The notes: generated from the letters alone by a model not told the origin. DNA of 64,000 nucleotides from Blasia pusilla (GCA_050084515.1 CM114271.1:27590001-27654000); one strand, 5' to 3'; positions 1,069 through 57,348 are shown, numbered from the stretch's first letter. Made by a program: numbers and translations.

Positions 1069-1929
1069 TAAGAATCCAGCACGTCTTAGAGAAGAAAAGA
1101 AGCCTAAGATTGGTTTGATGATACTAGGGGAACGAGCCAAAAGTGAAGAAGCCCGTCACAATGCCTCAAAATTTGGTCTCCCAGGGAAAAATTCGGATCA
1201 CTCAAGTAGCCAACCTGTCAAAATCCGACAGCTTGCCTAGAAATGGTTGAAAAGTTGCAGTGGTCAAAAAGTGAAAAGTTGCAACCCATCGGAATCCGAC
1301 GGGTTGCAAAATTGTAATTCTAAGTAGCTAGACGAACACAATCCACAAGTCCAAAAAAAATATTCAGCAAAATTTTACAAACACCATTATCGGTTGAAAA
1401 AATCTCGTCCTTTATTACATCCGAAGGAATCTCGGAAATGTACATGTGATCTAGTCTATGATTTCTTCAGCCTTCTCATCTACAAATTTGCTCATGACTC
1501 TCCTAGGTTCCTGTACAAAAGGAATGTCTTGGGATACAAGTGGCTCCTTTGGCCGATTGTAGACGGGGATCGAAAATGTTGGCGAATTCGAGAGCCTTGG
1601 CCCCCCCCTAGGTACACCATAACGGTCCCATGTAACCTGATTTGAGTCCCATCGCCTTCCTCGGCAGTATATCTTGTACGCTCTGCAATGTGACATCCAT
1701 CCAATATCAATACGTGCTCCGTCCTTGGAAATACCATGATGGCAATCCCACAGGTAGTAGGAATCCAACATGTCTTGGAGAAGAGAAGAAGCCTACGCCT
1801 TGTTTGATGATACTAGGGGAAGGTGCTAAAGTGAAGAAGCCCGCCAGAATGCCTCTAAAGAGTCCGAAAGAGTCCGATCACTCACGCAGCCAACCTGTAG
1901 GAATCCGACAGGTTTCCTGGAAGTGGTTG
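1069..1929 (+). repeat. ~190-bp imperfect direct repeat (copies ~1069-1249 and ~1738-1929) inside the MULE
   Basis: Both copies read ATGGCAATCC..AGAAGAAGCCTA..TTTGATGATACTAGGGGAA..AAAGTGAAGAAGCCCG..GATCACTCA..GCCAACCTGT..AATCCGACAG..TGGTTG. Confidence 0.85.
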
Positions 1930-2543
1930 TCGTGCGCATACATATCGCTACACAACATACATCGCTTCGTCACATCTATACCACACAACACCGATCTTCC
2001 CCACACACGGGTCGATCCACACATGTACAAAAATCAACCCATACATATACATGGAGATCACACAACAAAAATAAAGAGTAGAAAAAATGGCAACCCGGCC
2101 TAAAACTCCACTCTTCAATCTACATCGGCATATCGAGCCTCGTCCACCCTGTGCTATCAAGGAATCCGGACGCTAGCACCCTAGTCCTAGCTCACACACA
2201 TACAAGGGAGGTGCTCCAACGGCCCAACATGAGAAAGATGGCTTAGGAAAGCCATCTTCCTCTCTTATATAGGTTGGGAAGAGCCAAAAGGCTCTTCCCC
2301 TAAAAATAGCCCTTCCCTTGGTAACTCATACAAGAGGTTACCAGGGGCGGGTGACCTGGTCAACAAGTCATCCGTCTGTAAAAGACCTCAACATGAAAGT
2401 CGTCAGAAACGACGTTCCTGACACAATGGACCTATCCTCAACCTCATCTGACACTGTGGGACAAAGTTACACTCAAGATAGTCCTCTGGCTCCTACGCCC
2501 TATCCACGATAGATCTCGGCCTATCGGCTACCCATATGTGACA
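1928..2543 (-). mobile_element. Solo terminal repeat (A+B unit) of the DNMT-gypsy family
   Basis: On the minus strand it starts TGTCACA and ends TGCGCACGACA, the same 3' end as the other family members. TATA-like CTATATAAG near 2265. 1928-2323 is near-identical to 21488-21884. No TSD found. It truncates the MULE cargo gene. Confidence 0.8.
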
Positions 2544-5500
2544 CCCCTGAAAGGCCCACTAAGTCGAACACCAAGTCACCCGGCCTTGAGCAGAGCTCGA
2601 TGAGCGTTTGCATCAGGGTTGGCGACTTTTCCTTTCCTCCAAGTAAGGGGGTACTGTCTTGCATGTAAATTCCCGGGGGGGAATTTTATAAACTATCTAA
2701 GTTGTACCCATTGGAGCATGGATCCACAAGATCCAGGATCTTAAACACCTTGAAGTTGTGCTCGGGCCGAACAAAGCAGTAAACATAGGAGTGGTCCATC
2801 TGTAAAGAAGCACGTTGGAAACAATGTCAGCAACAAGAAAGAGCTACTTGACCACAAGTCTACTCTCAGTATGGTGACATAATGTGCAACACGTCCCCAA
2901 AGAACTTCGCATTATAATCCTAACATTGGAGCAACCTATCGGAGTCCGACGGGTTGTTTTACAAGTGTTAGTGATTTTTTTGTCCATGAGCAACCCGTCG
3001 GAAGGCGAAAGGTTGCTGGCTTAGAGCAGCCCATGGTTGGCTAAGAGCAACCTGTCGCTTTCAAACGGGTTGCATCATTCCAGAAACACAAGGAAAAATC
3101 ATGAGCACTTGCAACCCGTCGGGTTCTGACGGGTTGCATTCACCCAATGGAGACTTGCGGTAAATTTGCAACCCGTTGCTTTCAGACGGATTGCACCACC
3201 GAAGTCTCCAGCTCAAACAATCCGATGGGTTGCATGCAGAGATGCAACCCGTCGGAGAAAGACAATTTGGATATAAATTTAGAGCCCTTACTCGAATTTG
3301 ACTCGTCGCGGATCGGAGTGGGTACTCGTTCTTGATGACCCACGATTGCGCCGTCCTCCACTTCAGCGACCTCTTGACGCACTGGAGGTTGAAGAGCTTG
3401 TCCTTGCTCCCTCCAGTCAAAACTAAGAAACATCCCCTGTCACTGAGATAAGCGTCTACAAAGGAAAACAGGAGCGTGATCTGGTCATAAGAAAGAGGGA
3501 CATTCCAGTCTGGGACCCCGTCGAACGGATTCTCGTCCCACAAGCGCAACCCCGAGGGAAAATCGGCGACGAGGAGATCCACCGCCACCTCTTTGACCTC
3601 CCCATGGACCGTCCAGGGAGCGTGCCCATTTTTTTGAAGCTTGCGTCCCAGCGTTGTCAATTTCTCGATGGCGGGTGTCGACGCTTGGGAACTGAAACGT
3701 TTCAGCTCATCGAGAAGATTTGTGTAGTGAATGATGACGCTTGTCCAGGTCGTTGTTTCTCTATGTCTTCCCAAGGATGATGGAGTGTATTCCACATCCT
3801 GGTCTGCTCCGTGGGACAACCCTGGCGCCTCTCGCTTCCGCTTCTCCCGAGTCTGCGGTCGGCTTGTTGGGGTCTCTATGACCTCAGACTCTGGTGGAGT
3901 TTTTTTTGCAAGACCTGGTCCGACCCTCTCTCCCCGCTCGCCCGGACGATTCCGGCTCTCGCCTTGAATTTTCAGCCTCTCTTTGGGAAGACTCGGCCTC
4001 GGAATTCTTCGATCCCCTCGCCTTGGCTTTGAGACCCGCTGTAGATTTGTCCTTGGCGGTGACGACATTGGACACCAACTCCGCTGTCTTGAGGGCTTGC
4101 TCCTCCGCATCTCCTTCGAAAAAGTCTTCAGGCTGCACAAAATTGGGGATGTCGTCCCTACCTGCGGCCACTGCATCATAGAGCTGGCGTAGATCTTTCT
4201 CGGTTATGTCCTGAGGGTCGTTGAAGTCCAGCCAAATCGAGAAATTCTCCACCTTCCAATCGGACATGCTTTGAGCCATCTCCATGTCGTACATGGAAAA
4301 TGTCTCTCCATCAGGCGGAGAAGCCCATAATTTGCAGGCTGCCGATATTTTTCGGCAGTTACCTGCATTCTTACAATGGATAAGGTACCTGAACACCATG
4401 CGTTAGGCAACTCTTAGTCGAGATGCATCGGCTTCCTGCTCCTGAAGATCTTGCTTCTTCTTTGCGAAATCCCTTTTTTTCGCTTCTATTTCTTCGTCAA
4501 GGTCTGCCTGAGGGAGGATGCGATCCTTGAACATCATCCTAAAACCTGGGTTTTTAATGGGCTTGTCCCGCATGTCATCCAGGCAAAGTTCAAAATCTTC
4601 AGCACTCTCCAGGTTTGTTTCCTCCGGAACTGGCTCTATTCTTTTCAGCTCCGCTTGGAGACCCACGAGCATGGACTTCCCGAGAAGCCGCAACGCGTCC
4701 CAAAATGACCATTCACGGAGCCAATGGGAGATCACTGGATCAGAGACACCCAAAGGATGGTGTGCCGCCCTCTTTTGGGCCTCTGTGCCCTCGAGACTGA
4801 TTTTCATCAGTCGAATTCTCCTAAATTCGCTAATTCTAGACAAGGCAAATCGATGCACGCGATCGAGAGACACTTTCTCCCCAATCCGACCTTGCGGATC
4901 TTCATCCCTCTTCCGCTGGCGCTTGATTATCGCCTTCAGCTCCTTGTAGAAATCGGGGCCAAGTTCGGGGTTGAGAATGGCGATGTAGCGTTGCATCTTG
5001 CTTGCCGTGTACTTCGTAGCTGAAGATACTGCCGCTTGGATGAACTTTGCATGCTCAGACACAGACACATTCTCCCTCCGCTCCAGCTCCAGTGCAGCGC
5101 TCTTCTTGGCGGCCTGTATCTTCGACCAGCAAAGGATTGTCATGGCTGCATCTTGGGAAATAAATTTATTTGCCCAAGTCTTTTTTTTATTTGAGCACCC
5201 TTTTCCAGGATGTCATTTACAAGGGCGTCGCCCAAGAACCCCTTGTACTCTGCCGGATGCGTCGTTAGCACTTTCTTCACCCAATCGCAATCTTGGATCC
5301 AGTGGTGGGTGACATTCCCCTCCGATACAATCCTGCACATCCAAACTCAATATGAGAAATTTTGCAAGGTCCATGGGTTCTTGCAACCCGTCGGACTCTG
5401 ACAGGTCGTCACAGCTCATGGTCGGAATGGTAGCTACGAGCTAAATTTTGCAACCCATCGGAGTCTGACGGATTGCATTCAGATTTATGATTGCCTGGTT

Positions 5501-7335
5501 TCAACCCGTCGGACTCTGACGGGTTGTCAGATAATTTGTATTTAGAGAGTGATTACAGAGAGAAAAGTGAACATATCAACCCGTCGGAGTCGGACAGGTT
5601 GCACAATTTCAATTAAAGCTGCAATTTGACGCCAAAAATGTAGCTCCCCTACTTCCAAATGCAACCTGTCGGACTCCAACGAGTTGCTTTCGGCCAAAAA
5701 CATTAAAAAATAGCTATGAGTCAAGCAACCCGTCGGACTCCGACAAGTTGCTTTCTTCAAAAAACATCCAAAAACAGCGGCCAGTCGAGCAACTCGTCGG
5801 ACTCCGACGAGTTTCTTTCGGCCAAAAACATCCTAAACCTGTGGTCAGTCGAACAACTCATCAGAATCTGACGAGTTGCTTTCGGCCAAAAACATCCTAA
5901 ACCTGTGGTCAGTCGAACAACTCGTCGGACTCGCTTTCGGCCATAAACATCATAAACCTGTGGTTAGTCAAACAACTCGTCGGAGTCCGACGAGTTTCTT
6001 TCGGCCAAAAATATCCTAAACCAGTGATCAGTCGAACAACTCATCGGAGTCCGACGAGTTGCTTTCTGCCAAAAACATTCCAAAAATAGTGGCGACTCAA
6101 ACAACTTGTCGAAGTCCGACGGTTTGCAGCAAGAGGAAACTTACATGTTCATGGCATGCATGGCCATCTCCACCGTCGCCATGTGATGAGGGAATGGATG
6201 TAGCACCAGTGCCTTCATGCAAAAATGTGCCTCCAATGAGTTTGGGCGCTCCTCTGCAAACTGGGTCCACGTCATGAACATGTGGTTTCCATCCCAGATG
6301 AAGAAATACAGCTTCCGCATCCAGCTGAATTCCATCCCCTCTATCGCCCTTCTGAATTCCTGATCTCTCATCCTCCAGAATGTGTCGAGCGCTTCCAAGT
6401 CCTCCTCCATAACCAGCGCTTGGGTTCCATGGTCATCGTAAGGCTGAACATAGAACGGAGGGAAGTTGTCGACTTAGGATGCTGTCGCTGCCGATTATTT
6501 CAGCTTTGCAATATCCTTGTCAGACTGAATTTCGCAGACGTACTCCATTGTTCGCAATTAGCAAAGTGGAATTCTCGGGGCGTTATGGCCCTCCATCAGT
6601 GCCATCTGCTTTACCACCTGTCACAACGGGGACAAGGTCAATAAGCTACACTAAATTGCCAATGAATTGCAACATGGGCCTTCATATAATTCAAAGAACA
6701 CAGATCCTCTCTTACTCGCTCAAAGACTGGGTCGGTGTCTTGGCCAGCCAACTGCTCTGGGACAGCAGTTAGCAAGTCCACTGGAAACTCGTCGATCCGA
6801 TAGAGGTCGATTTCTTCCACCGGGCTTAGAGACGAGGATGACCGCTCTCCTGGTTCTTCAGCGATGTCCACCATCTCCACGCTGGCGGTCCTCATGACCT
6901 CATCGTCCGTCACTTGAACTTCAGCCATTTTCGCTATATTGATTGTGTCCCCGGACTTCATCGGGGACATTTCCTGCATCTTAACACTTTTGGTTGGACG
7001 GGCAGGGATTTCTTCAATGGCAATTTCTTTTTCCCTCCGAGCTTTTTCCAATTCTACTCTCCTCATCGACGCGTCTTTTCACGCTTTTTGTCGGTGATCC
7101 TTTTCTTCAAGGCCTGCGACGCCTTAGCCTCTGCGTTCTATTTTTTGAGTGCCTCATTTACACGTTTTGCAAGAAGCTCCTGCTTGTGCATCTCCGCTTC
7201 CCTTTCCCGCTCCTCGATTTCTTGCTGCCTTATCTCATTGGCCGAACGAGGCCCTAGAGATGGTGACGCAAGAGTCCTCATTGACTTGGGAGTGAAGCTC
7301 CCAGCCTTGTTTGCTTTAGATTTTTTCCTCGTCAT
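2544..7335 (-). pseudogene. MULE cargo gene: ParB/Srx-like N-terminal domain + coiled/low-complexity middle + beta-class N4C/N6A DNA methyltransferase-like domain (introns 6715-6618, 6144-5333, 3291-2800)
   Basis: Three GT-AG introns splice in frame (FER|VVK, MNM|IVS, QIR|MDH). ParB-like IPLC*LRTMEYV..FFIWDGNH (6280-6570). MTase motifs VDLLVADFPSG (DPPY position), YLSDRGCFLVL, and EKSPTLMQTLIELCSRPGDLVFDLVGLSG (motifs X/I). Several stops and homopolymer frameshifts. Confidence 0.75.
5655..6130. repeat. 64-bp tandem array (8 palindrome-containing units) in an intron of the cargo gene
   Basis: CAAC palindrome cores start at 5662, 5726, 5790, 5854, 5918, 5973, 6037 and 6102. Unit is approximately CAACTCGTCGGACTCCGACGAGTTGCTTTCGGCCAAAAACATCCTAAACCTGTGGTCAGTCGAA. 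Confidence 0.9.
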
Positions 7336-7679
7336 TGTTCCCGAAAATACCTCATATGGACAAGCAAATTGCTCTCTCTGCATGAGGAATCGCCTTGATG
7401 AGTCGCCTTGCTGATGTCGCGATGAGTCGCCTTGATGAGTAGCTCGAATCATCTCGCGATAGTTCTCTCAAATTGTCTCGCGATGAGTTGCCGTGTAAAT
7501 CGCCCCTTGGTATCTGGTCAGCTACTGTGCGGAAGAGCAATTGAGATCGCAAAACGAAAAACCGGAAATGAGCGAACCTTCCCCTATTTATACTTTTCGA
7601 GCCGTTGGGCTGACCGTTGGGTCGCATCGTCCTTTCGACAGCGACGTGCCAGCCGTTATGGAAATTTGGACGTGAAAAA

Positions 7680-8625
7680 CACCAACCCAACGGCTTCGAC
7701 AAGTTGCACGCTTCTCGAGGGTTCAAGGCATCCGTCCTCGTGGCAACCCGTCGAAGACCGACAGGTTGCACGCCTCTGCCGTCTTCGGACAAGAACGCGA
7801 GGTACCCGCGCAACCCGTCGGAGACCGGTGGGTTGCACCCTTCCCTCGTCTTGGGATAACAAGGCGGGCTTCCAGCGCAACTCGTTGGAGGCCAACAGGT
7901 TGCACGCTTCCTTCATGTAAGCGTTACAAGGCGACTCATCGCACAACCCGTCTGAGGTCGACGGGTTGCGCGCCTCCGCTGTCTTTGGGCAAGAAGGTGC
8001 GGAACCCGCGCAACTCGTCGGAAACAGACGGGTTGCACGCTTCCTTAATGTAAGCGTTACAAGGTGAGGCAATTGCGCAACCCGTCTGAGGCCGACAGGT
8101 TGCGCGCCTTCGTCGTCTTCGGGCAAGAAGCCACGGCACCCGCGCAACTTGTCGGAGATCGATAGGTTGCATGCTTCCTTCATGTTAGCGTTACAAGGTG
8201 AGGCACAAGTGTGCAACCCGTCCGAAGCCGATGGGTTGCATGCTTTGCTTATCTTGGGTTAATAGGCGAGGTACAAGGGCAACCCGTGAGTTATCGACAG
8301 GTTGCACGCTTTCCTATCCCTCGGGTAACAATGCGAAAACGCATAGTTCCGAGGCAACCCATTGCAATCCGACGGGTCACAAGATCTACCCTGAGTTGGA
8401 CAATCCCGCAAAAGTCCCCAACGATTGGTCGCCTTAGCATATGCAAGCGATATCTTGTGTTTGATGCTAGCAAAATCGACTCAACAGACCTTTGGTCGGC
8501 AAGAAGGGGGTACCAACCCAACGGACTCCGACGCGTTCCAACAAAATGAAGTGTGTGCTTCGCAACCAACGTCTCTGATTCCCAAATTCTGCAACCCACT
8601 TGACTCTGATAGGTTGCAACAGAAT
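7680..8625. repeat. Array of 27-bp palindromes GCAACCCGTCGGA-N-TCCGACGGGTTGC with ~67-bp period, between the two divergent MULE genes
   Basis: Cores start at 7744, 7811, 7878, 7944, 8011, 8078, 8145, 8214, 8280 and 8355, with further copies near 7684, 8514 and 8591. Confidence 0.9.
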
Positions 8626-8710
8626 TGAATCCATTGTGTCAGATATTTTCACCTACCAAACTTCATCTTGTTAGTCAAATTCTGTCAGGAGAATCTGAGT
8701 CCCTATTCAC

Positions 8711-8760
8711 TATAAATTAAACATTCTCATTCTCATTCTCATTCTCATTCTCATTCTCAA
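8711..8760 (+). promoter_or_regulatory. Putative TATA box followed by (CTCATT)n microsatellite upstream of the transposase ATG
   Basis: TATAAA at 8711, about six CATTCT units at 8722-8760, ATG at 8787. Confidence 0.4.
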
Positions 8761-8786
8761 TCTCCTCCGGGTGGAATCTTCTGGGA

Positions 8787-11700
8787 ATGGATAATTATGT
8801 GAAGCTCACTTGTGGCAGTCATCTAGCGGCCCTTCCTCAATCAGAAATCGTTCGACTGCAAGCTCGTGAGTCTTTCATACTAGTGGATGAAATTTTTCTC
8901 TCACTTCGATTTCTTCTCCAAATTGGAATCATCTTTGTATCCAAGGATGTTAGGGTGGACGGTACGGAGGACATAATAGATGAGACAGTTCAGCCAGTGA
9001 TTGCAGACCGTAAAGTATGGAATCTCCTACCTCTAGCAAATGGTCAATATAGAGTTTACGGCTTGCCCCTTAATTCTTCTGTTTCCCAAGTAGACGGTCG
9101 AGAATTTCCTAGTGCACCGAGCTCTACGTTTGCAACTCCTAGCTCAGTAGATCCGGCTTCGACTCCAACTTCACATGCTCGTAACAATGTTGTACTTCTT
9201 GAAGACATTCCGTATGTTATCAACCTCAGTGGATCTGTCGGACACCAACCAGGCCCTCTATTCGCCTACTCGTTCCTCTTGCCAGTATTAGGCAATAGTT
9301 TGCTATCGTCTCTGGCCTTGAAAATGTTCAAGCACATTCTTGTCGATGAGTTGCCACCCACGTACGATGATAATTGCATTTTTGAGTTGCCTCCACTTGC
9401 TACTCCTGCTCAAAAGAAAGATGGAGGACGCTTGAAGAGTATGGACAGAAAGTCTGATTGTCATCGATGGTGCATGCTTCAACGGACTAGTGCTTCAATT
9501 CCAGATGGTCCTTGGATTGTCTCCCACTGCCAATACGTTGGAGCCTTGGAGTGTAGAAGTCCAGCATGCCTATATCTAGAGTGCAACGGGCGAGTCAATA
9601 CGTCGCAATTCCCCCCCAAGAATGCAGAAACTCCATACGAGGTCGGTGCCACCATACCGCCGGGAGGCCATCGATGTTCTCATTGTCAGGCATCCCCCTT
9701 CTGCGTTGGAGCGTGTCCTGCATACATATTTTTCATTGTCCACGACTTGGGCTCCACGTCAAAGTACACAAGGCTGGAAGTTCATGTTGGCTCCCACACT
9801 CATCTTGTGACCGATGCAATTCAGAGACACATCAAGGAGGATGTGGCGAAGAAAGTTTCGGAGGTCTACAGAAACTCTCCGGGTTCAAAGCCCGGAGTGA
9901 TCAAGCTCACAATAGCATCACAAATTTGCGAACAATTGCTTGGAATCCCTCGACAGGGCGAGATCACGGCTGATGAGGAGAAACAACTATGGGAAAATCT
10001 TGCATTTCTCGCTGATCCTGAATGCTTCTGGAATTTTCTGAGTCAAATACGGGTACTGGATGGAAAGCCGGCCGAAATGGATGCCATTTCCAGAATCAAG
10101 GCCAACTCCAGATTTCCATTCATTCAGAGATGGCAGTTCATGGGCCAGGGAGGCGAGGGATGTAGGGCCTATGTCTTCAAAATGTCAACCACAGGTCCGT
10201 CGAGTGGCCTCGATCTTATAGATCGAATGAGAGAAGGGGAAGATCTTTACGGCAGCTAGGTAAGCTTTGATATTTGCTACAGAGTGCTGAATGGATGGTT
10301 GAGAATGGGTGCTTACGTTTATGACCATGTGGAGAAGGGACTCAAAACTATATTTGTCTGTGAAGTAAAACCAGAAGACGTTGGCAGTTTGAAGATGTGG
10401 TGGTTACTCTTATTGGAGGTGGTGAAGGAAAATAAAAGGCCACCTCCGGAAAATTTATGGGTTCATGGCGGACAATGCACAACCAGGGTGGATTGCTATC
10501 AAGGAAGTGTTCTTGGGTGGAGAGGTTCAACCGGAGAGGGAAAGTTTGGATGCTTTCCATTGGCAAGAGTCTGTGACCCGTACACCAAATCTTGCATCAA
10601 GGAGAATAAGAGGACAGAGCATATCACTCTACTCCAACGCTGTTAGGACAACAAAACCTTGAAACACGCCATGGAATGCCAAGAAGAACTTCATGGATGG
10701 TGGAGGAAGCATGCGATTGAGGGGAAGTACAAAGAGTTGTGCTCTTGGTTGAGTTGGTGGACTGTACGTATGAGACAATGGGGAAACTTCATGTGGCAGG
10801 TGAGTTCACTATTTCTTCTTGTCAAGTTCACGCTGAGAATTTTTTAAAAAGTTGCAGCTCAAGTTGAGAAGCGTGGGAACTATAGGGATTTCAAACCGAA
10901 GAAACCAAGCAATTTTTCGGATGGGATGGGTTGCCCGACTGTGCAACCCTTCGAAATGGACAGGTTGCCTGAGTGTGCAACCAGTCGGAGACCGACGGGT
11001 TGCATCCAGAATTTTGGTGCAACCCGTATATAAGTATGCAAGTCGCATGTATACAAGGCCTGCAAATAGTTCGACCCCGATGGGTTTCGGATGACTTGCA
11101 CTTGGATCTTCCATCCCGGAGTGGCCAAAGGTTCTTGCAACCCGTCGGAATCAGACGTGTTGCAATAGGTGTTTCCTAGGTGTTGCAACACGTCGGGACC
11201 CGATGGGTCACAGAGTAATTCATGGGATGCCTCAGCCTTGCAACCCGTCTGGTTCCGACAGGTAGCTTATTTCTTTGACTTCTGAGCTATTTTCGTTCCC
11301 TTCTAACATTGCCGTCGTTGCAGGGATTGAACATTCATGAAAATTCCCTCTACCCCAACACAAGTGGAGCAAAAAGTGTTCATTCCTCCTGGAGGTTGTC
11401 ACAAGCATGCCAACGAGTTTCACTTGTGGAGGCATGCCAACAAGACGAGGCAAGAGCAATGCTACAGTCTGCAGCATCCCATATCTTCCTCACAAAAGGC
11501 ATAACAAAAGGAAGGGGGCCTTCGATCTACGAGCTCTATGTCAGGGCGGCTGTGAGATCCGGTGATGAAAAACTCTATGTGGAAGCCTTCAACCGATGCG
11601 TAGCAGGAACTCCCCTCGAGCAAGACGTACATATTGGTGGGGATATTCGTGGGCGGGTTTTAAGATGTCCCATACAGATGGTGGTAGAGCAGTCCGAGCG

Positions 11701-14113
11701 AGACTCGTGGAGACCAGATAAGTATCTTGATTTCAGGCAGCCGAAGAGGCAGCATCAAGGAACGAATCCGGTGATTGATTTGGATGAGGAAATTACGTAT
11801 ACGCCGCCTAGGTATTCGGGGACCCCGGACCGCTGTCGTATAGTAAAATCAACCAGTGTGTAAACTCCTTCGTCATTAAGTGTTAGATAGAGTTTCATTA
11901 GTATTAAGTAAATTGGCTTAGAAAAAGGAGATTCTTATGTTTAAACCTCTTTATGGTGCCTCTTTTATGCGGGCCCAACTTTAGGAAAAGGAGGTAATAA
12001 ATAAAAGATGACTTTATAAAAGTAAAGTAGTTGCTTTAATGAAAAGCAAAAGTAGTCTTGGTTGGTGGCTAGGTTAGTTGGGGTAATTTGGAAAATATCA
12101 AGTGGGTAAAAGAGGATATTTTGGAAGAGATAAGAGGAAATCTACTTGTATCAAAATGTGATTGGCTAAGCCTTGAGAGGAAGCCATGTGGCACAAGATA
12201 AGATAAGCTCTATTTCGTACTCTTGTGGATCCCTTGTGAGTATATAAAGAGGAGGGACCTTCAAGGGTTCATCACCTTCTATTCCACATCTTGAGTCTCT
12301 CGTGTCTCTCTTGAGTGTATGGTTTTGGGATTGCTTGCTCTTCCAATGAAAGTGGATCACCCCTCTTGGGAGAGTAACTTGACCATGGTCTATTGTTCGA
12401 GAGATTTCTAGAGTGGTGTGTGTGTGTATGTGGGGATGAGAGGTTTGTCACCGTAGAGGAGTTTAGTCATACTAAAATAGCGGATGTTTTGGCTTGTTAC
12501 TTCCCCAATGAGAGTGGATTATCCCTCTTGGGACAATAACTTCGCCAAAACCCATTCCTGAGGAGAGTAGAGAATGTCTGTCAAGCATGGATAGGGTGGA
12601 GCACGAGCTGTGCCGACTTTCCTTTCCTCAATCCTTACCATGTCAAGGTACTCTTTGTAGATAGGCACTGGTTCACTCGCTATTTAGTTTATCATTTTGG
12701 GGAGGCGTTCATGAACTAGGTCATGCAATCTCCAACTCCGGTGATTCTTCCTATTGTCACATATGGAAGGACATGGGATTGTACTTTGTATGTCCTTATA
12801 TAGCGATCCATGGATGTCAATAGGCCTGCTCAAGTAGGGTTTAACACTAGTTGTGCTATCTTCCTCGTGTACAAGCGTAAAATAGTTTATAGGGATTTTA
12901 TAGTTAGGAATTTTGGGGTCCGATGTTACGAAGAAGAAGTGATCGCTCGGCACTTCCATTTGTGATATAATTGTCGTGAGGGAATGGAGAGTGTACATCA
13001 TAATTTTGTATTAAAAAAGGAGAACTTATTAGAGAGTTCACCTTGCATCGACCGCATCTACCGCAGCTAGAAGGCCCGCCCTTGCTCGAAGAAAGACTCT
13101 CGACACGACACCGCTCCCAAATCCGTGATGGAATAACTTCTCCAAAATCAGTGAATGTTTTATTTCAAAAGCCCTCCGTTGCTGGAAGTTCGCAACATCC
13201 GGTCGGTGGGGTAGTTCAACAATATGGGATTCCGGTAATGGAGGTGGATTGCAACCTAAAACGGTGGCATATATCTTGGAGCAACCCAAGACGTGCACCC
13301 ACTTGCAGGGCAGGATCTGATGGCATTAGGAGAGCATACGGCACTTTCTTGAATAAGAATTGTACAAGGATTGGATGACCACTGCGTGGGTTTTGGGGAC
13401 TCAAAACCTTTGTTCGTTTCACGAGGACCGGGGATCAATTGAAGTATTTCTTCTGCCCAAATGAATCTTGCGCTTTCCAGAAGTCTTATCTGGCTGCCAT
13501 TTGAGCTCTGGGGAATACCCCCACGACTTGGCCCATCGCTGCAAGGACGAACTGCACTCAAGACGAAGTGGACAATCTTACAAGTGCCGGTTTCAGACTC
13601 GTAGACGGAGGAAGTTCGAAGCATATTTGCATTACAGAGACCTTCGCATTTCGTATTCAACCCAAGATTGATGTCAACATGTACCCGGGGAAGGTGGATG
13701 ATCTCAATCCACTATTTCTGTTTGAGTCTAGAAATGGGGTGAAGAGAAACAGAATGTGTAGGCCAATGGTGGAGAGAGCAAAGCGAATTGCATCAGCTCG
13801 GGAGGCAAAAATGGAGATCATCGCCACGAAAGATGTCCTGAGTGGCAATGGAATAGGAAGGATGTATTGGATCAGGAACAACAGTGTAAATTCAAGTGTC
13901 ACAAGGGTGTATGTGGTGCACATCTGTTGCTTTCCCACATGTTTATGTGATGACTTTGTCCAAAGAGAGACATGTGGCAAAAGGTATTTCCCTTGTAAGC
14001 ACATGTACTATGTGTTGCTGGTAGTTTTAAGAGAGTCGAAGGTAGGAGTAGGAATCCACCAACCAATTCTGTCCCTCAAAGAAGTGCAAAGTATTTTAAA
14101 CAAACCACTTTGA
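8787..14113 (+). pseudogene. MULE-type DDE transposase with N-terminal Cys/His zinc domain and C-terminal SWIM finger; intron 10800-11323; interrupted by a solo LTR
   Basis: Cys/His cluster CRSPAC..CSHC..CPA..HTH. Core motifs VSFD..NGW..VYDH (D1), FMADNA (D2), AFHWQES (CxxH position), TSGAKSVHSSW (E position, mutated). SWIM motif PTCLCDDF..PCKHMYYV in 13568-14113. Donor CAG|GTGAGT, branch CTAAC, acceptor TTGCAG|. In-frame stops and frameshifts. Confidence 0.8.
11834..13050 (+). mobile_element. Solo LTR (1217 bp) of an unrelated LTR retrotransposon, inserted in the transposase
   Basis: Starts TG, ends TTGCATCG (CA mutated). 5-bp TSD ACCGC at 11829-11833 and 13051-13055. TATATAAA at 12241. AT-rich and non-coding. 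Confidence 0.7.
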
Positions 14114-14528
14114 GGATGCAAAATGAGGTTTTAGATTGTACTTTCATTTTTCCAGAACCTTCACTTTGAGCTTGAACTCTATTCAGCCCAGGGAAAATGA
14201 TAGATTGTTTCCACACCTTGGATGGAAAAAGTGATTGGTTCCACACTTACGATTCCATTGATTTTTCAGTTTTCTAAATTTTGTGCAATTTGCAACCGGT
14301 CGGATGGACTCAGATGGGTTGCCAAAATATGGAAGAGGAAAAGAAAAAAAACTGTGGGACTGCTTAATAACTGAGCAAAAAAGTGCAAAAAAATTCACAC
14401 AAAAAGTTTCCTCTCTTCAACCCAACGGAAACTCTCTTTAAAAAAAAAGTATCTATTTCGGTTGAAGGTAATTTCCTCTCTCCTCTCTTCCTCTCTTTCT
14501 CTCCTCTTACCGCACCTCGTGTGATCAC

Positions 14529-21487: not shown

Positions 21488-21884
21488 TGTCGTGCGCATA
21501 CATATCGCTACACAACATACATCGCTAATCACATCTACACCACACAACACCGATCTTCCCCACACACGGATCGATCCACACATGTACAAAAATCAACTCA
21601 TACATATACATGGAGATCACACAACAAAAATAAAGAGTAGTAAAAATGGTACACCCGGCCCAAAACTCCACTCCTCAATCTACATCGGCATATCGAGCCT
21701 CGTCCACCCTGTGCTATCAAGGAATCTGGACGCTAGCATCCTAGTCCTATCTCACACACATACATGAGACGTGCTCCAACCGCCCAACATGAGAAAGATG
21801 GCTTAGGAAAGCCATCTTCCTCTCTTATATAGGGTTGGGAAGAGCCAAAAGGCTCTTCCCCTAAAAATAGCCTTTCCCTTGGTA
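21488..21884 (-). mobile_element. Truncated terminal repeat, second copy of the 1928-2543 repeat
   Basis: Near-identical to 1928-2323 over ~400 bp. Confidence 0.9.
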
Positions 21885-22794
21885 GGTCATCCTCAACCTC
21901 CTGAGTCTGTCCTCCACTACTAGTGAAGGCGCTCTACTAGATCTCACCGATCTATCCTAAAATACGTGAGATACGCCACACAATGGGTATGGTGTCCAAA
22001 GGTGACATTGTAGCACCCCGTCTAACTCAGGTTCCTCTTACTTATCATGCTCTTGTCCAAATGCCTCACTCTAGGTCATTTGCATATGCTCATTATCCAG
22101 TTGCAAGCTTTGAAGCCTCTCACTCGAGCCCCTCAAAGGCACCTGTCAAAGGATAGATCGATGAGATCTAGTAGAGCACCTTCAGGAGTAGTGGAGGAAA
22201 GACTCAGGAGGTTGAGGATGAGCTATTGAGGCTCCGGGAAACCTGAGGGAGTAGGTTTCCCCTTCGTTTCGGCTCATTTGGAGCCATATTGAGGAACTTA
22301 CTATTTTAGATATGTACCATTTTGAGTATATGATTGACTTTCTATTTTTGGTAAGTGGCCCTTGACCTCCTACATTAGGTCAAGAGCCAAGGATGTGACT
22401 TGGAAGCATAAGTTACCGTGGAGAGAGCTTGGAAGAGGGGAGGGGTATACCTCAAGGAGAGAGAGCTTGAGAGCTCATTCTCTTTGTTGAACCTCTTGGC
22501 ACGAGGCAGTAGAGCTATAGTCCCTTGCCTTATGAGTGTAACCGAAGCCTCTTATTAGGAGAGTGGGTTTAGTTTGACATTGAGAGAGACATGTTAGAGT
22601 GCACACATGTGAGGACTATGGTGTTGTGAGAGAGATTGGATATTACTTTATTGGAGATATTTTGGTACTTCTTGTCTCGTTGTTTGGATGCCATGAGTTA
22701 GCATGGGATCGTGCGTGTTTTGTGTGTGTGTGTGTGTGTGTGTGTGTTTGGTGATAACTATTTATGTTGTGTAGCGATGTGTATGCGCACGACA
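21885..22794 (+). mobile_element. Solo A+B terminal repeat whose 5' start and flank are inverted
   Basis: A part 22150-22650 and B part 22651-22794 ending GCGCACGACA. Its 5' start lies inverted at 21971-21885. TSD CGTA (21975-21972, minus strand) / GGTA (22795-22798). (GT)n at 22722-22746. Confidence 0.75.
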
Positions 22795-23549: not shown

Positions 23550-26500
23550 TGTCAAGTGTCTTGCATTAGAAAAGTGGTAAAGAAGCATAACTGGTGGAAA
23601 ACTGCTCTCACACTCACACACCACCATGGAGAAAAAATTTTGCAATAAGAGAAAGAGTGGAGGGTGTTCCCCTTCTCAATTATATAGGGTATGTACAAGC
23701 AACCCTAACCCTAATCTTAACCATAGTCTCGAGTAAGACTAATTGTGATTAACTAACCATAGTTAAGATAATGGCGCTGAACTAACTAACCAAGATTAAG
23801 CTTCCCTACTTCGTGTGAGTACCAAATATAGCAATTCAGGTGTTTGATGAGCTTCACTATAACTCAATCTTCAATAATCCCCCTCAAGCTCATATCGATA
23901 TCTCTAACACTTAAATCATTTCTAAACATCTCAAACTTATCTCTAGACAATGCCTTTGTAAAGATGTCAGCAATTTGCTGATCCGTACCTGTATATAAAA
24001 GATCAATTTCTCCTAAAAGCACTTTCTCTCTGATAAAATGATAGTGCACCTCAACATGCTTTGTACGAGCATGAAACACAAGGTTATTAACAAGCTTGAT
24101 GCTACTAATATTGTCTGCATATATTACACTAGGTCATAAGTTACTAATACCAATCTCAACAAGTAATCGATGAAGCCACACCGCCTCACATGTTGCATTG
24201 GTTGTTCCTCTGTATTCAGCCTTTGTTGAAGATAAAACAACTTTAGGTTGCTTCTTTGAATCCCAACTTATAACTGCACTTCCCAAAGTAAACGAAGAAC
24301 CAGATGTGGAGTGTCGATCAGACACGCTTTCTGCCCAATCAACATCTGTGAATCCTTGTAATTATAAACTTGGAGAAGGTTAAAATTGAAGGGAAGTCAT
24401 TATATATGCATGATGTGTCGCTAGGAAACCTTCATTTATGAATCTATGAACAGGATGTGTGACTCTACTTAATCTATGAAATTGTTGTTCAGAGGTAGAT
24501 GCCTCTAAAACCTGACTCAAGATCTGACTAGTGTCAATAGACTAAATACGTACTCTTCTCGTCTATGGACTCACATATTTAACTTAAAAATCTAGGATCT
24601 CTTCTAATTCAACGCTAGTACTTGGGGAATTTGAAGACAATGTCTATTGGTTTATAGTCATATTCTCCCCCTTAACAGACGAGTTTAGAGATGGAATAGG
24701 CTCAGATAGAGCATATAATGATTTTAGCTCATCAAAGATAACATCGCGACTGATACTAAGTTGCATAGAGGATGGAATATAGCACTTATATCCCTTAGTT
24801 CTATTAGCTTAACCAATGAATATACATCTTTCAGATTTGGGATCTAATTTCTTACGTATTTCAGAAGGAACATGAGCATAACAAATACAACCAAATACTT
24901 TCAAGATGGAAAAATCAGGTTTACTTCTTGGAGTCTTATCATAAACTCCTCTTGTTGGAATTCGGTTGATCAAGAAGACTACACACGCTACATCCTCTAT
25001 CCAATACACCATAGGCATGTTCTTCTCATTCAGCATACCTCGTGGCGCCTCAACAATATATCGATTCTTCCTCTTAGCCACTCCATTTGATATGGGGTGT
25101 AACATCAAGTCACTTGACGTTGGATGTCATTCTAACGTAAGTAATCATCAAACTCTTGAAAGATATCCTCCTCCTCCTCCATCTCAACGCAATTTTGGAA
25201 TGTGTTCTCCAGTCTGCTTCTCTACTAGAACTCTGAATGTTTGGAATATTGAGAATACCCATATATAACTAAAGAAGTCATCAATAAATGAAACAAAATC
25301 CTTGCAACCACTAAGACTATGTTGTAATGTTGTCCACAAGTCATTGTGAATCAACTCCAATATCTTGGATGCTCTTCTATCTTACTTTGGAAAAAGAAAT
25401 CTAGCTTGTTTTCAAAATTGACAAGCAGGACATACCTCTAACGTAGGAGGACTCGTTAATTTAGGAAGTCCTATTACTATATTAGATTATGAAAGACTCT
25501 GTAATCTTTGAAGATTCATATGTCCAATTCTCTTATGCCACACATTTAGATCTGTGACTTGTTGGCCACTTTGACCATACATTGTTGTTTGAATCTTTGG
25601 CATAGAAACATCTAATTTGAACATTCTGCCAGATCTACTTCCTTTGGCTATTGTAGTCTGGTCATCCATTATTTCAATTAAACAACCATTTATTTTAAAC
25701 TTCACTTGATAACCCTATTCTATTATTGTCCTATAGAGATCAAGTTTCTTGCAATGGTAGGACCATAGAGAGCATTTTCAAGAGCACAAAGACCATCTGA
25801 TGCTATCGGAACTTTACCAGTCTGCGTGATATGCTGAGTGTCATCCCCTATGAGCACAATTGAAGGATCTTTCACTGGCTCCATACTACTAAACCATTTA
25901 GCTTATTAGATCATATGATTTGATGCACAAGAGTGAATATACCAATTTGTTGTCAAATCTTTCTTGATCATTGCTCCCATATGATGAGTCATAACCAAGA
26001 AATGCTCAATTTGTGAATGTTGTTGTTCTTGGTACTGCCCTTGGTGTTATTGCTCCAGATAGTTTCGTTGTTATAAGGCTTCTATTCTCATATCTATCTT
26101 ATTTTTGAAGCAAAAATTTGCATAATGATCCTTTATCCCATAGTAATTGCAAGATCCAAGGATCCTCTATTGTTGACCTCGATCCAAACGGTTTCTACCA
26201 TCATCATCTTGTAATTCTGTCTCGTACTGATTCATAGTTGATTGAGTGATGTTATATTGAGTGTCTTTTCCTCCATAGGTTTGATATCCACCACGACCAC
26301 GGAAGTTTCTACCACGACCCCTGCCTCTGTTTGATCCATAATCTGCAAATAGCACACTCTCTTGTAGACTAGACGAGCGAGCGTTGCCTACTAGACGCAT
26401 CTCTTCACTGATTAACAATGGCACTAACTCTTGAAAGGTTAGATACTTCTCTCTCACATAGATAGAGATCTCAAAGGACTTGTAATCCTTTGGAAGGCCT

Positions 26501-27343
26501 TGAAGAGTGAAAAAAATCAGATCATCATCTTCTACTGTCACTGCAATGCTATTCAACTGATCAACAATATGTGTGATACTCAAAATATAATCATTAATGC
26601 TCTGCGATTCTTCCCTCACTTCGTTCAATTTTTGTTTCAATTGAAGCTTTATGGCCGTTGTAGATGTCTGGAACAAATTTTCTAATGCATCCCAGTCAAC
26701 CTTCGGATTATCAACATCTTGAATATGACCTATCATTGGGGAATTGATCGTTATTGAAATGTAGTGGATTACTTGCCTTGCGCGTTTGTTCCAAACGCGA
26801 ACATTCAAGTCTATTGAGTCACCTTCTGGCTTGGCCTCATCACCTATGACAAGCTCCCATAATTCTTGACCCATGAGGAATTATTTCATGTGAAACTTCC
26901 AGACATTGTAAGTTTGCTTATCTAGTTTCTCGCTTGTGATTGTTGTTGAGGAATACTCCATCACGAACAATTTCACTCACAAAAACGTAATTCCAGACTC
27001 TCTAGTGCTCCAATTGAAACATAGACCACTCTTTATCATAAATCAACCTGAAATTTGCCAAAATTGATCAATTGTATGAAAGAACTAGTCGAAATTGGCT
27101 TGTAGAGAGCAAATTGCACAACTTTTCTTCACTAATTGCACTTTCCTAGACTCAAATTGCTATTGCATGAGCTCAGAATGTCATAATTGAGCAATTTTGG
27201 ATGCATTGGAAAGCTCTCAATGAGCTCTACAAGACAATAAGAGCTTAATTGACTAACCAAGATTAAGCTTTCCTATTTCGTGTGAGTACCAAATGTAGTA
27301 ATTCAGGTGTCTCATGAGCTTGACTGTAACTCAATCTTCAATA
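23550..27343 (-). mobile_element. Decayed, internally deleted Ty1/copia retrotransposon inserted in the G2 DNMT domain
   Basis: Copia gag (26167-26874), GAG-pre-integrase WHKRIGH, integrase NGVAKRKNR..VFGC..KLDPKS, RNase H HARTKHVEVHYHFIRE. Most of RT is missing. PPT GAGGGGGAT next to the 3' LTR (23550-23876). A 5' LTR remnant ends TCTTCAATA at 27343. Confidence 0.9.
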
Positions 27344-57200: not shown

Positions 57201-57348
57201 AATCCTTTTCGACGAAACCATTTCTGTAGAGGGTTTTGAGACGAAACTTATGACCACGTTGGAAGTTGCTCTGCGTTGTATACGTGACGAGCCTAGTAAA
57301 CGGCCGTCCATGCTCGAAGTTCTGCGCAGCCTCGAAGACAAACTTTGA
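54214..57348 (+). CDS. LRR receptor-like Ser/Thr kinase, subfamily X (EMS1/BRI1/PSKR-like kinase domain), intronless
   Basis: 1044-aa ORF with signal peptide, LRRNT cap (CNWTGIAC), >20 plant LRRs, GNPWLCG cap, TM helix, and kinase motifs GDGGFGKVY, VAIKRL, QGEREFLAEMETLG, HRDLKASN, DFG, GYIAPEY. Confidence 0.95.
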   Translation: MDTVLLFQETLCFKFFTALLLIKVSHCVDSDLEALVAIKAQLNSSAPAGWTGINPCNWTGIACESSNNAERVVKISLAQMNLTGTLDPGIGNLSFLVTLDLSKNAMFGPIPLELHNCQRLKVLNLEGNNFEGNFSGLFGFRNLEVLNLAQTKLNGSIPSTIGTLRNLRFLNLSGMTGLVGTIPDEIGNSSSLQNVDFSDGNLTGSIPSSLFQLKQLKNVSLSRNKLSGTLDSIFTTSSVLENLSLDENDFHGNIPEFFGNLSDLISLKASKNQFDGEIWPSSFTGLVKLEGLDLSENRLTGQISTELRRLTALQTLALNNNSLTGPIPGELFDCRKLTSLSLHYNRLSFEIPREIGNLVFLEVLQLQDNRLNGSIPTELVKCSKLKQINLSGNEIGGELPRGLSALAGLRRLHLSQNKLVGSIPSEYFSLRKIEYIVLSQNYLRGPIPNNLALMVELLNLELADNLLSGVMPSSLGELTKLQKLDLTKNQLVGDLGMMAEGINSSQLQFLLLGENGFTGNLSFSLDCMKGLLSLDLHGNNLSGNLPPAVGGLFQIQKIDLSSNHINGSIPPEFSDCSYLTFLNLSFNQFVGPIPAKFSKAWPSEITIDISNNLLSGNIPTGLNGSIVKLNVSNNGLEGSIPPSLQELGESSFTGNPWLCGPPLPTLCSDVLLSSSRNLRLSALITVVVVTACTITGVAVVLVTFRARLKAWFNRGQIGFSRELTSENGPVTWICDNRPSETCSNSSLIRKRLRQPLTYADLAMATGGFSNDNVLGDGGFGKVYKGLLKDGSTVAIKRLTEDGFQGEREFLAEMETLGTINHKNLVQLLGHCTSGLERLLVYDFMPNNSLDVWLHSRTEDMEPLPWPTRMNIAKDVARGLTFLHHFCIPHVIHRDLKASNILLDASFSAHLADFGLARYLNTYDSHVSTGVAGSLGYIAPEYAQSWRVTTRGDVFSYGVVLLELLSGKRPAGGCYKPVKGGNLVSWVRHLIQTAQTPILFDETISVEGFETKLMTTLEVALRCIRDEPSKRPSMLEVLRSLEDKL

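What the first reader, a model, noticed from the sequence alone, without database searches (positions are those of the whole stretch)
2544..7335. Mutator-like transposon carries a spliced ParB-like + N4/N6 DNA methyltransferase fusion gene
Seen: the ORF track shows only fragments, but three GT-AG introns join them in frame. The N-terminal part has IPLC.LR..V.EI..D..KL...FYV..FFIWDGNH. The C-terminal part has VDLLVADFPSG..YLSDRGCFLV, then in an exon absent from the track (2799-2544) EKSPTLMQTLIELCSRPGDLVFDLVGLSG. Known: DGxHR marks ParB/Srx domains. DPPY-before-FxGxG with KP..L...LI..S..GD.V.D is the beta-class amino-MTase (N6_N4_Mtase) signature. ParB-MTase fusions are typical of phages and prophages, and a 4mC methyltransferase of bacterial origin is known in Marchantia. 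Inference: a prokaryote-derived epigenetic module domesticated as TE cargo. The DPPY-to-DFPS and FxG-to-LVG changes may mean an inactive, DNA-binding-only protein.
Basis: partly seen in the sequence, partly recalled or inferred. Interest (0 to 1): 0.85.

Follow-up and report, generated by a model that had tools for sequence, protein, structure and literature searches.

The report
Dead transposon gene with methyltransferase-like domain
A decayed, cut-off copy of a very abundant plant repeat carries a gene whose end looks like a bacterial-type DNA methyltransferase with a spoiled active site, while the claimed ParB domain and the Mutator label found no support.

Summary
The minus-strand ORF fragments at 2544-7335 are real and belong to one multi-exon gene. 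This copy is dead. It has five in-frame TAA stops and a frame change near 3910. At 2543|2544 an LTR-like sequence cuts it off inside methyltransferase motif I.

DNA reads show a very high-copy family. RNA reads are sparse.

**Methyltransferase reading: supported.** The exon 4 end spliced to exon 5 aligns in one colinear stretch to a PF01555-type profile that I built (hhalign probability 95, P 3.5e-8; 0 of 100 shuffles reach it). The order is that of the beta class, motif IV before motifs X and I. Pfam and PHROGs hit only motif X/I, weakly. Motif IV is DFPS here and DLPT, DLPK and DVPE in the only three database relatives, two of them from Riccia liverworts. A non-catalytic or atypical enzyme is therefore likely.

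**ParB reading: not supported.** Pfam gives nothing. A ParB profile that recovers 22 of 22 real domains scores the N-terminal region below shuffled sequence.

**"Mutator-like": not confirmed.** There is no Pfam hit in three read-through frames.

**Also seen.** A 23-nt palindrome clusters in the element's non-coding DNA, with 20 of its 22 window matches there.

The parts
7138..7467 (-). It ends in TAG 7140-7138 and lies in a different frame from the next piece. Whether it is coding is unsettled.
6716..7078 (-). Exon 1 (acidic, no family match). It ends at donor CGA|GTAAGA.
6618..6715 (-). Putative intron 1 (GTAAGA ... GTGACAG), in frame.
   Evidence: sequence only, no RNA joint seen
6174..6617 (-). 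Exon 2, the claimed ParB-like part (IPLC*LR ... FFIWDGNH). Three in-frame TAA stops at 6560-6558, 6497-6495 and 6476-6474. No ParB support.
5180..6173 (-). Putative intron 2; boundaries uncertain. Holds a 64-bp tandem array (5668-6121) and 9 copies of the palindrome.
3292..5179 (-). Large exon, colinear with the Riccia proteins P0003 and P0004. Premature TAA at 4405-4403 and a frame change near 3910-3912. Its last ~100 codons are the motif IV half of the methyltransferase-like domain.
3553..3564 (-). Motif IV equivalent, DFPS, in place of (D/N/S)PP(Y/F/W).
2800..3291 (-). Intron 3 (492 nt, GTAAGG ... TTTACAG), with 2 palindrome copies.
   Evidence: RNA depth is 0 in both bins inside it (2913-3254) in all 3 RNA runs, against 1.1-4.7 in the flanking bins. 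The domain alignment is colinear across the junction.
2544..2799 (-). Exon 5. TAA at 2688-2686 (TAC in 815 of 843 DNA reads). Motif X/I (EKSPTLMQTLIELCSRPGDLVFDLVGLSG) at 2545-2631. Cut off at 2544.
1928..2543 (+). LTR-like sequence that abuts and truncates the gene. Its first 396 nt recur at 21488-21884 (95% identity). Its start motif also occurs at 16429 and, inverted, at 22794.
7743..8311 (.). 67-bp tandem array between the two divergent gene sets, built around the palindrome. Seven palindrome matches lie between 7745 and 8537.
8721..14113 (+). Divergently oriented ORF pieces taken as the transposase: 8721-10259, 10260-10662 (two frames), 11279-11863 and 13505-14113. The last holds a CLCx16CKH string. 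No family match.

Best explanation
This is one decayed, 3'-truncated copy of the non-transposase gene of a very abundant repeat family, probably a DNA transposon, in a bryophyte-like plant genome.

The ancestral gene was spliced and encoded a protein of roughly 1000 residues. Its C-terminal domain descends from the beta class of N6-adenine/N4-cytosine DNA methyltransferases, with motif IV first and motifs X and I after. In all four known family members the catalytic tetrapeptide is D-(L/F/V)-P-x, not (D/N/S)PP(Y/F/W). The motif X/I part is better kept, but it is known only from this copy.

I infer that the protein no longer methylates in the canonical way. I think it works as a DNA-binding, perhaps S-adenosylmethionine-binding, accessory factor of the element. 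Possible target sites are the palindromes clustered in the element's non-coding DNA.

- **Shown:** the gene structure, the decay of this copy, the high copy number, the liverwort relatives and the methyltransferase-like homology.
- **Inferred:** loss of catalysis, DNA binding, and the role in the element's life cycle.
For: **Homology to beta-class methyltransferases.**
- Pfam PF01555 matches residues 19-43 of the exon-5 ORF, E 0.008.
- All three PHROGs hits of that ORF are annotated 'DNA methyltransferase': E 0.003, 0.0057 and 0.068.
- I built a template from E. coli YhdJ plus 30 non-redundant IMG/VR relatives. All 7 of the 7 members I checked carry PF01555, at E 2e-21 to 2e-47.
- hhalign against the trimmed template:

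| Query | Score | P | Shuffles reaching it | Template columns |
|---|---|---|---|---|
| Motif IV half, 4-sequence alignment | 29.7 | 3.7e-4 | 0 of 150 | 27-112 |
| Exon 5 alone | 33.5 | 1.7e-5 | 0 of 150 | 171-199 |
| The two spliced together | 55.7 (probability 95.0) | 3.5e-8 | 0 of 100 (max 22.9) | 27-197 of 230; 167 aligned columns |

- For P0003 residues 340-488, the ESM Atlas lists methyltransferase clusters by features (0.91 for a cluster in which 42% of members carry PF05175). By structure it gives TM 0.50-0.53, including a PF01555 cluster. These are leads only.

**A real gene family.** A phmmer search of 1.84 billion proteins found P0003 (Riccia sorocarpa, E 1.3e-12), P0004 (Riccia fluitans, E 1.7e-11) and P0005 (E 9e-4). 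P0003 is colinear with window 5002-4055 and 3669-3289.

**A repeat family.** About 1 in 100 of a whole-genome run's reads gives a depth of 170-1091 per bin across 2571-7358. 23,902 reads were laid, most of them 90-95% alike.

**At least one defect is private to this copy.** TAA 2688-2686 reads TAC in 815 of 843 DNA reads.

**Palindromes.** 22 matches against 0 expected. Twenty lie at 2933-11161 in non-coding parts, and none lies in 11.2-64 kb.
Against: - The Pfam score is 16.5 bits. The gathering cut-off is 26.7, and only 25 residues match. NCBIfam and PDB sequence searches found nothing.
- The significant hhalign result rests on a template and a query alignment that I built. The query profile has only 4 sequences, and the exon-5 part has only one.
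- Both AlphaFold runs failed (mean pLDDT 34.7 and 45.8), so no fold comparison was possible.
- Loss of activity is inferred from motif IV alone.
- Nothing shows that the protein binds the palindromes.
- No RNA splice joint appeared among the 15 joints shown; 132 were not shown.
- RNA depth over the exons is only about 0-6.
- The neighbouring 'transposase' has no family match, so the type of element is not established.
- The inserted G's at 3910 and 3911 (190 of 411 and 220 of 407 reads) join the two coding frames only if both sit in the same reads. A single one leads to an early stop.
Confidence: 0.6

Rival explanations
1. The protein is an active amino-methyltransferase with an unusual motif IV. 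It writes 6mA or 4mC on the element's own DNA or on host DNA.
For: Same homology evidence as above. Motif X/I keeps D...G.SG. The invariant D and P of motif IV are kept in 4 of 4 sequences. Liverworts have a working beta-class 4mC enzyme, MpDN4MT1, as read in passages of 10.1101/2021.02.12.428880.
Against: None of the 4 members keeps the second proline or the aromatic residue (DFPS, DLPT, DLPK, DVPE). MpDN4MT1 has TSPPY.
Confidence: 0.15
2. This is a phage-type ParB_N plus N6_N4_Mtase fusion taken from prokaryotes, and the ParB part is simply too diverged to score.
For: Such fusions exist. One IMG/VR protein in my template set (L050) has PF01555 plus a weak ParB_N match at E 3.9e-4. The strings IPLC.LR and DGNH are in the sequence.
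Against: There is no Pfam hit. hhalign scores 9.9 against a shuffle mean of 11.2, while 22 of 22 left-out ParB_N domains score 50-243. A profile of phage ParB-like N-termini of methyltransferase fusions gives P 0.23. The Atlas gives no lead. About 560 residues separate the two parts, and DGNH is followed by M, not R. The phmmer search returned only three proteins, none with a prokaryotic name.
Confidence: 0.08
3. The methyltransferase-like part is a host gene fragment captured by the element, for example from a liverwort DN4MT-like gene. On this view it did not arrive directly from prokaryotes, and the gene may never have served the element.
For: Liverworts carry host beta-class methyltransferases. 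A review abstract notes that Mutator-like elements tend to acquire host gene fragments (PMC6446971, listing).
Against: The homologous region in Riccia spans about 450 colinear residues, not only the domain. phmmer did not return any DN4MT-like protein at E up to 0.001. I could not fetch MpDN4MT1 to compare.
Confidence: 0.1
4. The methyltransferase likeness is chance, and the gene encodes something unrelated.
For: Every library hit is below its curated threshold and covers under 30 residues. There is no structural model.
Against: Two separate segments match the right parts of the domain in the right order. The spliced query gives P 3.5e-8, and 0 of 100 shuffles come near it. The Atlas lead on a homologue is independent.
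Confidence: 0.07

Closest known systems
Beta-class N6-adenine/N4-cytosine DNA methyltransferases (Pfam PF01555; E. coli YhdJ served as the seed of my template)
   Same: Domain order is motif IV first, then motifs X and I. One colinear alignment covers 167 columns. The hE..l.f.K-like and KP..L...I..S.PGD.V.D..GSG stretches are recognisable.
   Different: Motif IV is D-(L/F/V)-P-x. The match is below Pfam's cut-off. The gene is encoded in a plant repeat, interrupted by an intron, and preceded by about 800 residues of unknown sequence.
Phage and bacterial ParB_N-methyltransferase fusions
   Same: A methyltransferase domain at the C-terminus of a longer protein carried by a mobile element.
   Different: No ParB_N signal could be found here. 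In the one example seen (L050), ParB_N ends at residue 179 and PF01555 starts at 276. Here the gap is about 560 residues.
Marchantia MpDN4MT1a/b and the bdelloid rotifer N4CMT (eukaryotic beta-class 4mC enzymes)
   Same: Beta-class enzymes of bacterial type in eukaryotes, one of them in liverworts. Sources: passages of 10.1101/2021.02.12.428880, and the title and abstract start of PMC8885841.
   Different: The passages I read describe MpDN4MT1a/b as two tandemly duplicated genes with an intact TSPPY motif, and 4mC is undetectable in their double knockout. For the rotifer N4CMT I saw only the title and the start of the abstract. This family is highly repeated, has a degenerate motif IV, and has no shown activity. 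Direct comparison was not possible.
DNMT (5mC) genes inside retrotransposons of dinoflagellates and charophytes (PMC5890265; title and abstract start only)
   Same: A mobile element that carries a DNA-methyltransferase-type domain.
   Different: Those are C5-cytosine enzymes in retrotransposons. This is an amino-methyltransferase-type domain next to DNA-transposon-like ORFs.
VANC anti-silencing proteins of Arabidopsis VANDAL (Mutator-like) elements (PMC5735166, PMC10398659; titles and abstract starts only)
   Same: An accessory gene beside the transposase. The abstracts say VANC binds non-coding regions of its own element. Here a palindrome is clustered in the element's non-coding DNA.
   Different: No sequence relation was tested or claimed. 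Binding and anti-silencing are conjecture here.

Membership tests
PF01555 N6_N4_Mtase (beta-class amino-methyltransferase) | Score above Pfam's gathering cut-off (26.7 bits) | tested here: not met
   16.5 bits (E 0.008) on the exon-5 ORF. 13 bits on the read-through of exon 4, intron and exon 5. No hit for P0003-P0005.
PF01555 N6_N4_Mtase (beta-class amino-methyltransferase) | Permuted motif order: IV-VIII first, then X and I | tested here: met
   hhalign places the exon 4 end on template columns 27-112 and exon 5 on 171-199. The spliced query gives one alignment on 27-197, probability 95.
PF01555 N6_N4_Mtase (beta-class amino-methyltransferase) | Catalytic motif IV (D/N/S)PP(Y/F/W). The motif definition is recalled; TSPPY is confirmed for MpDN4MT1. 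| tested here: not met
   DFPS in the window, DLPT in P0003, DLPK in P0004 and DVPE in P0005.
PF01555 N6_N4_Mtase (beta-class amino-methyltransferase) | Motif I FxGxG glycine loop | tested here: inconclusive
   DLVGLSG aligns to DPFmGSG. The F is replaced, and this copy ends inside the loop. The next 30 nt seen in other copies' reads stay open in frame.
PF01555 N6_N4_Mtase (beta-class amino-methyltransferase) | Methyl transfer to DNA | not testable with these tools
   Needs an enzyme assay or long-read base-modification calls.
PF02195 ParB_N (ParB/Srx fold) | Profile match to ParB_N | tested here: not met
   No Pfam hit at E up to 10. hhalign score 9.9 (P 0.48) against a shuffle mean of 11.2. 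22 of 22 left-out true domains score 50-243.
PF02195 ParB_N (ParB/Srx fold) | Conserved arginine after the glycine-histidine box (GxxR or DGxHR; recalled) | tested here: not met
   The window reads DGNHMFMT. Of the family differences shown, the only one in this stretch is at 6272, four codons after the His, and it changes T to A. 450 rows were not shown.
PF02195 ParB_N (ParB/Srx fold) | ParB fold in a model | tested here: inconclusive
   AlphaFold model of ORF 6141-6473 has mean pLDDT 45.8, too poor to search with.
Mutator-like element (MULE) | MULE transposase domain (PF10551) or SWIM finger (PF04434) | tested here: not met
   No Pfam family at E up to 10 in single ORFs or in three read-through frames of 8721-14122. 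Nothing exceeds shuffles against 21 bacterial ORFs from loci that match PF10551. A CLCx16CKH string is visible in ORF 13505-14113.
Mutator-like element (MULE) | Long terminal inverted repeats with 8-11 bp target duplication (recalled) | tested here: inconclusive
   No inverted pair frames the region. The left end is cut off at 2544, and LTR-type sequence begins at 16429.

The most novel reading that the evidence does not exclude
A bryophyte DNA transposon family carries its own epigenetic accessory factor, derived from a bacterial-type N6/N4 DNA methyltransferase. The protein recognises the 23-nt palindromes packed into the element's introns and intergenic DNA. There it either deposits a non-5mC mark or, as a pseudo-enzyme, occupies the sites and shields the element from host silencing. 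That would be a counterpart of VANC built from a methyltransferase fold. The same lineage could be related to the liverwort sperm 4mC enzyme.
Probability: 0.15. Interest if true: 0.85.

Novelty: new variant of a known kind. Interest (0 to 1): 0.55.

Why it matters
Mobile elements that carry DNA-modifying domains are rare in eukaryotes. My library searches turned up C5 methyltransferases in retrotransposons (PMC5890265). Four searches found no paper describing an amino-methyltransferase-type gene in a plant DNA transposon.

Liverworts are also where a bacterial-type 4mC enzyme is essential for sperm function. An abundant repeat family with a related fold in a liverwort-like genome would make two questions testable: where such enzymes came from, and whether transposons use them against silencing.

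For this window the practical message is more modest. The copy is a truncated pseudogene, the ParB label should be dropped, and the Mutator label is unproven.

Tried and rejected
**Tools unavailable**
- No whole genome is held for the window.

**Protein searches that found nothing**
- The search for homologous proteins found nothing in three searches. Its word filter missed P0003 and P0004, which phmmer later found. These blanks therefore say little.
- PDB sequence searches with the read-through, with alignment A2 and with alignment A3 gave nothing useful.
- NCBIfam gave nothing.

**ESM Atlas**
- On the plain 110-aa ORF it gave only HECT-labelled clusters at 0.86-0.87, no better than chance.

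**Structure prediction**
- AlphaFold on the 4-sequence alignment gave mean pLDDT 34.7. On the 110-aa ORF it gave 45.8.
- I ran no fold search on such models.

**hhalign runs set aside**
- A2 against YhdJ alone gave probability 0.7, P 0.084.
- Untrimmed templates gave artefact scores near 130 in gappy columns, for shuffled queries too. That explains the single outlier of 137 among 200 shuffles. Only the trimmed templates are used.

**Transposase tests**
- Pfam on single ORFs and on three read-through frames gave no family.
- hhalign against bacterial ORFs bearing PF10551 gave nothing above shuffles. This is a low-sensitivity test across a large distance.

**Sequencing runs**
- No RNA holder was listed.

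**Splicing by RNA**
- No RNA joint was among the 15 joints printed; 132 were not shown.

**The missing 3' end**
- The continuation of the family beyond 2544 is not in the window.

**A reading I dropped**
- I first read the G insertions at 3910 and 3911 as a simple repair of the frameshift. I withdrew this.


Full report
**Setting.** The window is plant DNA. It holds an intact 1061-aa LRR receptor kinase ORF and several LTR retrotransposon pieces with gag, RT and integrase matches. No whole genome is held for it.

**What is in the sequence.**
The quoted peptide strings are there.
- The dots in those strings hide damage:
  - The stretch with IPLC.LR...FFIWDGNH has three in-frame TAA codons, at 6560-6558, 6497-6495 and 6476-6474.
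  - Exon 5 has a TAA at 2688-2686.
  - The pieces 4403-5212 and 3884-4402 lie in one frame, separated by TAA 4405-4403. A Riccia homologue aligns straight through that stop, so no intron is needed there.
  - Coding then moves to another frame near 3910.
- I listed all in-frame GT-AG pairs:
  - 3291..2800 is unique and has good consensus (CGA|GTAAGG ... TTTACAG|ATG).
  - 6715..6618 is plausible.
  - The middle intron has only a weak in-frame donor at 6173. The strong GTAAGT at 6146 does not fit the downstream frame in this copy.

**Reads from public runs.** I laid three RNA runs and one whole-genome DNA run of the same coded organism on 2400-7500, at 88% likeness or more.

*DNA run.*
- About 1 in 100 of the run's reads was used (1,966 million letters). 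23,902 reads were laid, most of them 90-95% alike.
- Depth per bin is 170-1091 across 2571-7358. I infer a family of hundreds to thousands of copies. The genome size is unknown to me, so this is not a count.
- This copy differs from the family at 490 listed places, of which 40 were shown.
- Among all kinds of change, 188 of 404 are places where the window has A or T and the family has G or C. That is the pattern of C-to-T decay.
- The exon-5 stop is private to this copy: 815 of 843 DNA reads give TAC.
- At 3910 and 3911, 190 of 411 and 220 of 407 reads carry an extra G. A script showed that one extra base leads to an early stop. The two coding frames join only if both G's sit in the same reads. 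This stays open.
- At 2543|2544 two repeat families meet. 808 DNA reads of other copies continue leftwards with one shared sequence (agreement 0.93), and it stays open in frame for ten more codons.
- In the window, an LTR-like sequence lies to the left instead (1928-2543). The copy is therefore cut off inside motif I. The missing part is not elsewhere in the window.

*RNA runs.*
- RNA is sparse: 135, 190 and 149 reads were laid.
- Most reads have the first mate on the plus strand. In the usual stranded libraries that means minus-strand RNA.
- Both bins inside intron 3 (2913-3254) have depth 0 in all three RNA runs. The flanking exon bins have 1.1-4.7. This fits splicing.
- No RNA joint was among the 15 joints printed; 132 were not shown.

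**Relatives.**
- A phmmer search of 1.84 billion representative proteins with the exon 4 end found three proteins only: P0003 (488 aa, E 1.3e-12), P0004 (305 aa, E 1.7e-11) and P0005 (176 aa, E 9e-4).
- The sources name the first two as hypothetical proteins of Riccia sorocarpa and Riccia fluitans.
- P0003 is colinear with the window over 5002-4055 (28% identity) and 3669-3289 (32%).
- Both Riccia models stop at or just past the position of intron 3, so neither contains the motif X/I part.
- None of the three has any Pfam family.

**Methyltransferase test.**
- *Library hits are weak but consistent.* PF01555 matches the exon-5 ORF at E 0.008, or 16.5 bits against a cut-off of 26.7. The three PHROGs hits of that ORF are all annotated DNA methyltransferase.
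- *Template.* I built a PF01555-type profile from E. coli YhdJ and 30 non-redundant relatives from IMG/VR. All 7 of the 7 members I checked carry PF01555 strongly.
- *Artefact.* Untrimmed alignments gave artefact scores near 130, so I trimmed gappy columns.
- *Results against the trimmed template*:

| Query | Score | P | Template columns | Shuffles reaching it |
|---|---|---|---|---|
| Motif IV half, 4-sequence alignment | 29.7 | 3.7e-4 | 27-112 | 0 of 150 (max 22.4) |
| Exon 5 alone | 33.5 | 1.7e-5 | 171-199 | 0 of 150 (max 25.4) |
| Both spliced at 3292/2799 | 55.7 (probability 95.0) | 3.5e-8 | 27-197 of 230 | 0 of 100 (max 22.9) |

- The spliced query aligns in a single run of 167 columns.
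- The order, motif IV before motifs X and I, is that of the beta class.
- The smooth run of the alignment across the junction is itself an argument for intron 3.
- As a separate lead, the ESM Atlas placed residues 340-488 of P0003 next to methyltransferase clusters, by features and by structure.
- Motif IV reads DFPS, DLPT, DLPK and DVPE in the four sequences. The D and the P are invariant. The second proline and the aromatic residue are absent in all four.

**ParB test.**
- Pfam gave nothing for the N-terminal pieces at E up to 10.
- I built a ParB profile from 22 PF02195 matches in five bacterial genomes and 25 phage ParB-like N-termini of methyltransferase fusions.
- The window's N-terminal stretch, read with X at stops, scored 9.9 (P 0.48). 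That is below the mean of its own shuffles, 11.2.
- Each of the 22 bacterial domains, left out in turn, scored 50-243.
- The Atlas gave no lead, and the AlphaFold model was too poor to use.
- The ParB reading therefore has no support beyond a short motif likeness.

**Type of element.**
- The divergent plus-strand ORFs at 8721-14113 have no Pfam family, either singly or in three read-through frames. They score no better than shuffles against bacterial transposases that bear PF10551.
- No inverted pair frames the region.
- A CLCx16CKH string and some D...D-like stretches look Mutator-like to me from memory. That is a lead, not a test.

**An unplanned observation.** The palindrome AACCCGTCGGANTCCGACGGGTT, with up to 3 mismatches, occurs 22 times against 0 expected.

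| Location | Copies |
|---|---|
| Left of 2544 (1283 and 1892) | 2 |
| Intron 3 | 2 |
| Intron 2 | 9 |
| Intergenic array, 7745-8537 | 7 |
| Non-coding parts of the plus-strand gene set | 2 |
| 11.2-64 kb | 0 |

**Reading.**
- The gene is the accessory gene of an abundant, lineage-restricted repeat. Its C-terminal domain derives from a beta-class amino-methyltransferase.
- The loss of the catalytic tetrapeptide across the whole family makes a binding, non-catalytic role the likeliest. Activity cannot be excluded.
- The clustered palindromes are natural candidate binding sites. VANC of VANDAL elements is the functional analogy (abstract starts).
- Liverworts own a working beta-class 4mC enzyme with TSPPY (passages read). 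I could not fetch it for comparison, so any link is open.
- Searches of the paper library found no description of such a gene in a plant DNA transposon. Supplements were closed.

**Verdict.**
- ParB is not supported, and Mutator-like is unproven.
- This particular copy is a truncated pseudogene.

Noticed in passing
window 2933-11161 (also 1283 and 1892): A 23-nt palindrome, AACCCGTCGGANTCCGACGGGTT, occurs 22 times at up to 3 mismatches, against 0 expected. It sits only in introns and intergenic DNA of the element and just to its left, and never in 11.2-64 kb. It forms the core of the 64-bp and 67-bp tandem arrays at 5668-6121 and 7743-8311.
   Followed up: partly
window 1928-2543, 16429, 21488-21884, 22760-22794: One LTR-type terminus (TGTCGTGCGCATACA...) occurs four times. 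1928-2323 and 21488-21884 are 95% identical direct repeats 19.6 kb apart. The stretch 16.4-21.1 kb is an inverted relative of the gypsy-type element at 28-43 kb. The nesting order was not worked out.
   Followed up: partly
window 54163-57348 (+): An intact, intron-less 1061-aa ORF with LRR repeats and a protein kinase domain (Pkinase E 1.9e-42). It looks like an ordinary host receptor kinase gene.
   Followed up: no
window 5432-5772 and 3685-3859: RNA reads here carry variant sets that are rare in DNA. One example is 5484 T>C, seen in 24 of 25 RNA reads across the three runs (19 of 19 in X19) and in 0 of 336 DNA reads. They also end in unrelated sequence. They seem to come from single sister fragments embedded in other transcripts, not from this gene's own mRNA.
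   Followed up: no
window 26167-26880 (-), 33959-36345 (+), 47515-48276 (+): A copia-type gag match, gypsy-type RT and integrase matches, and a further RT fragment. The window is largely nested retrotransposons.
   Followed up: no
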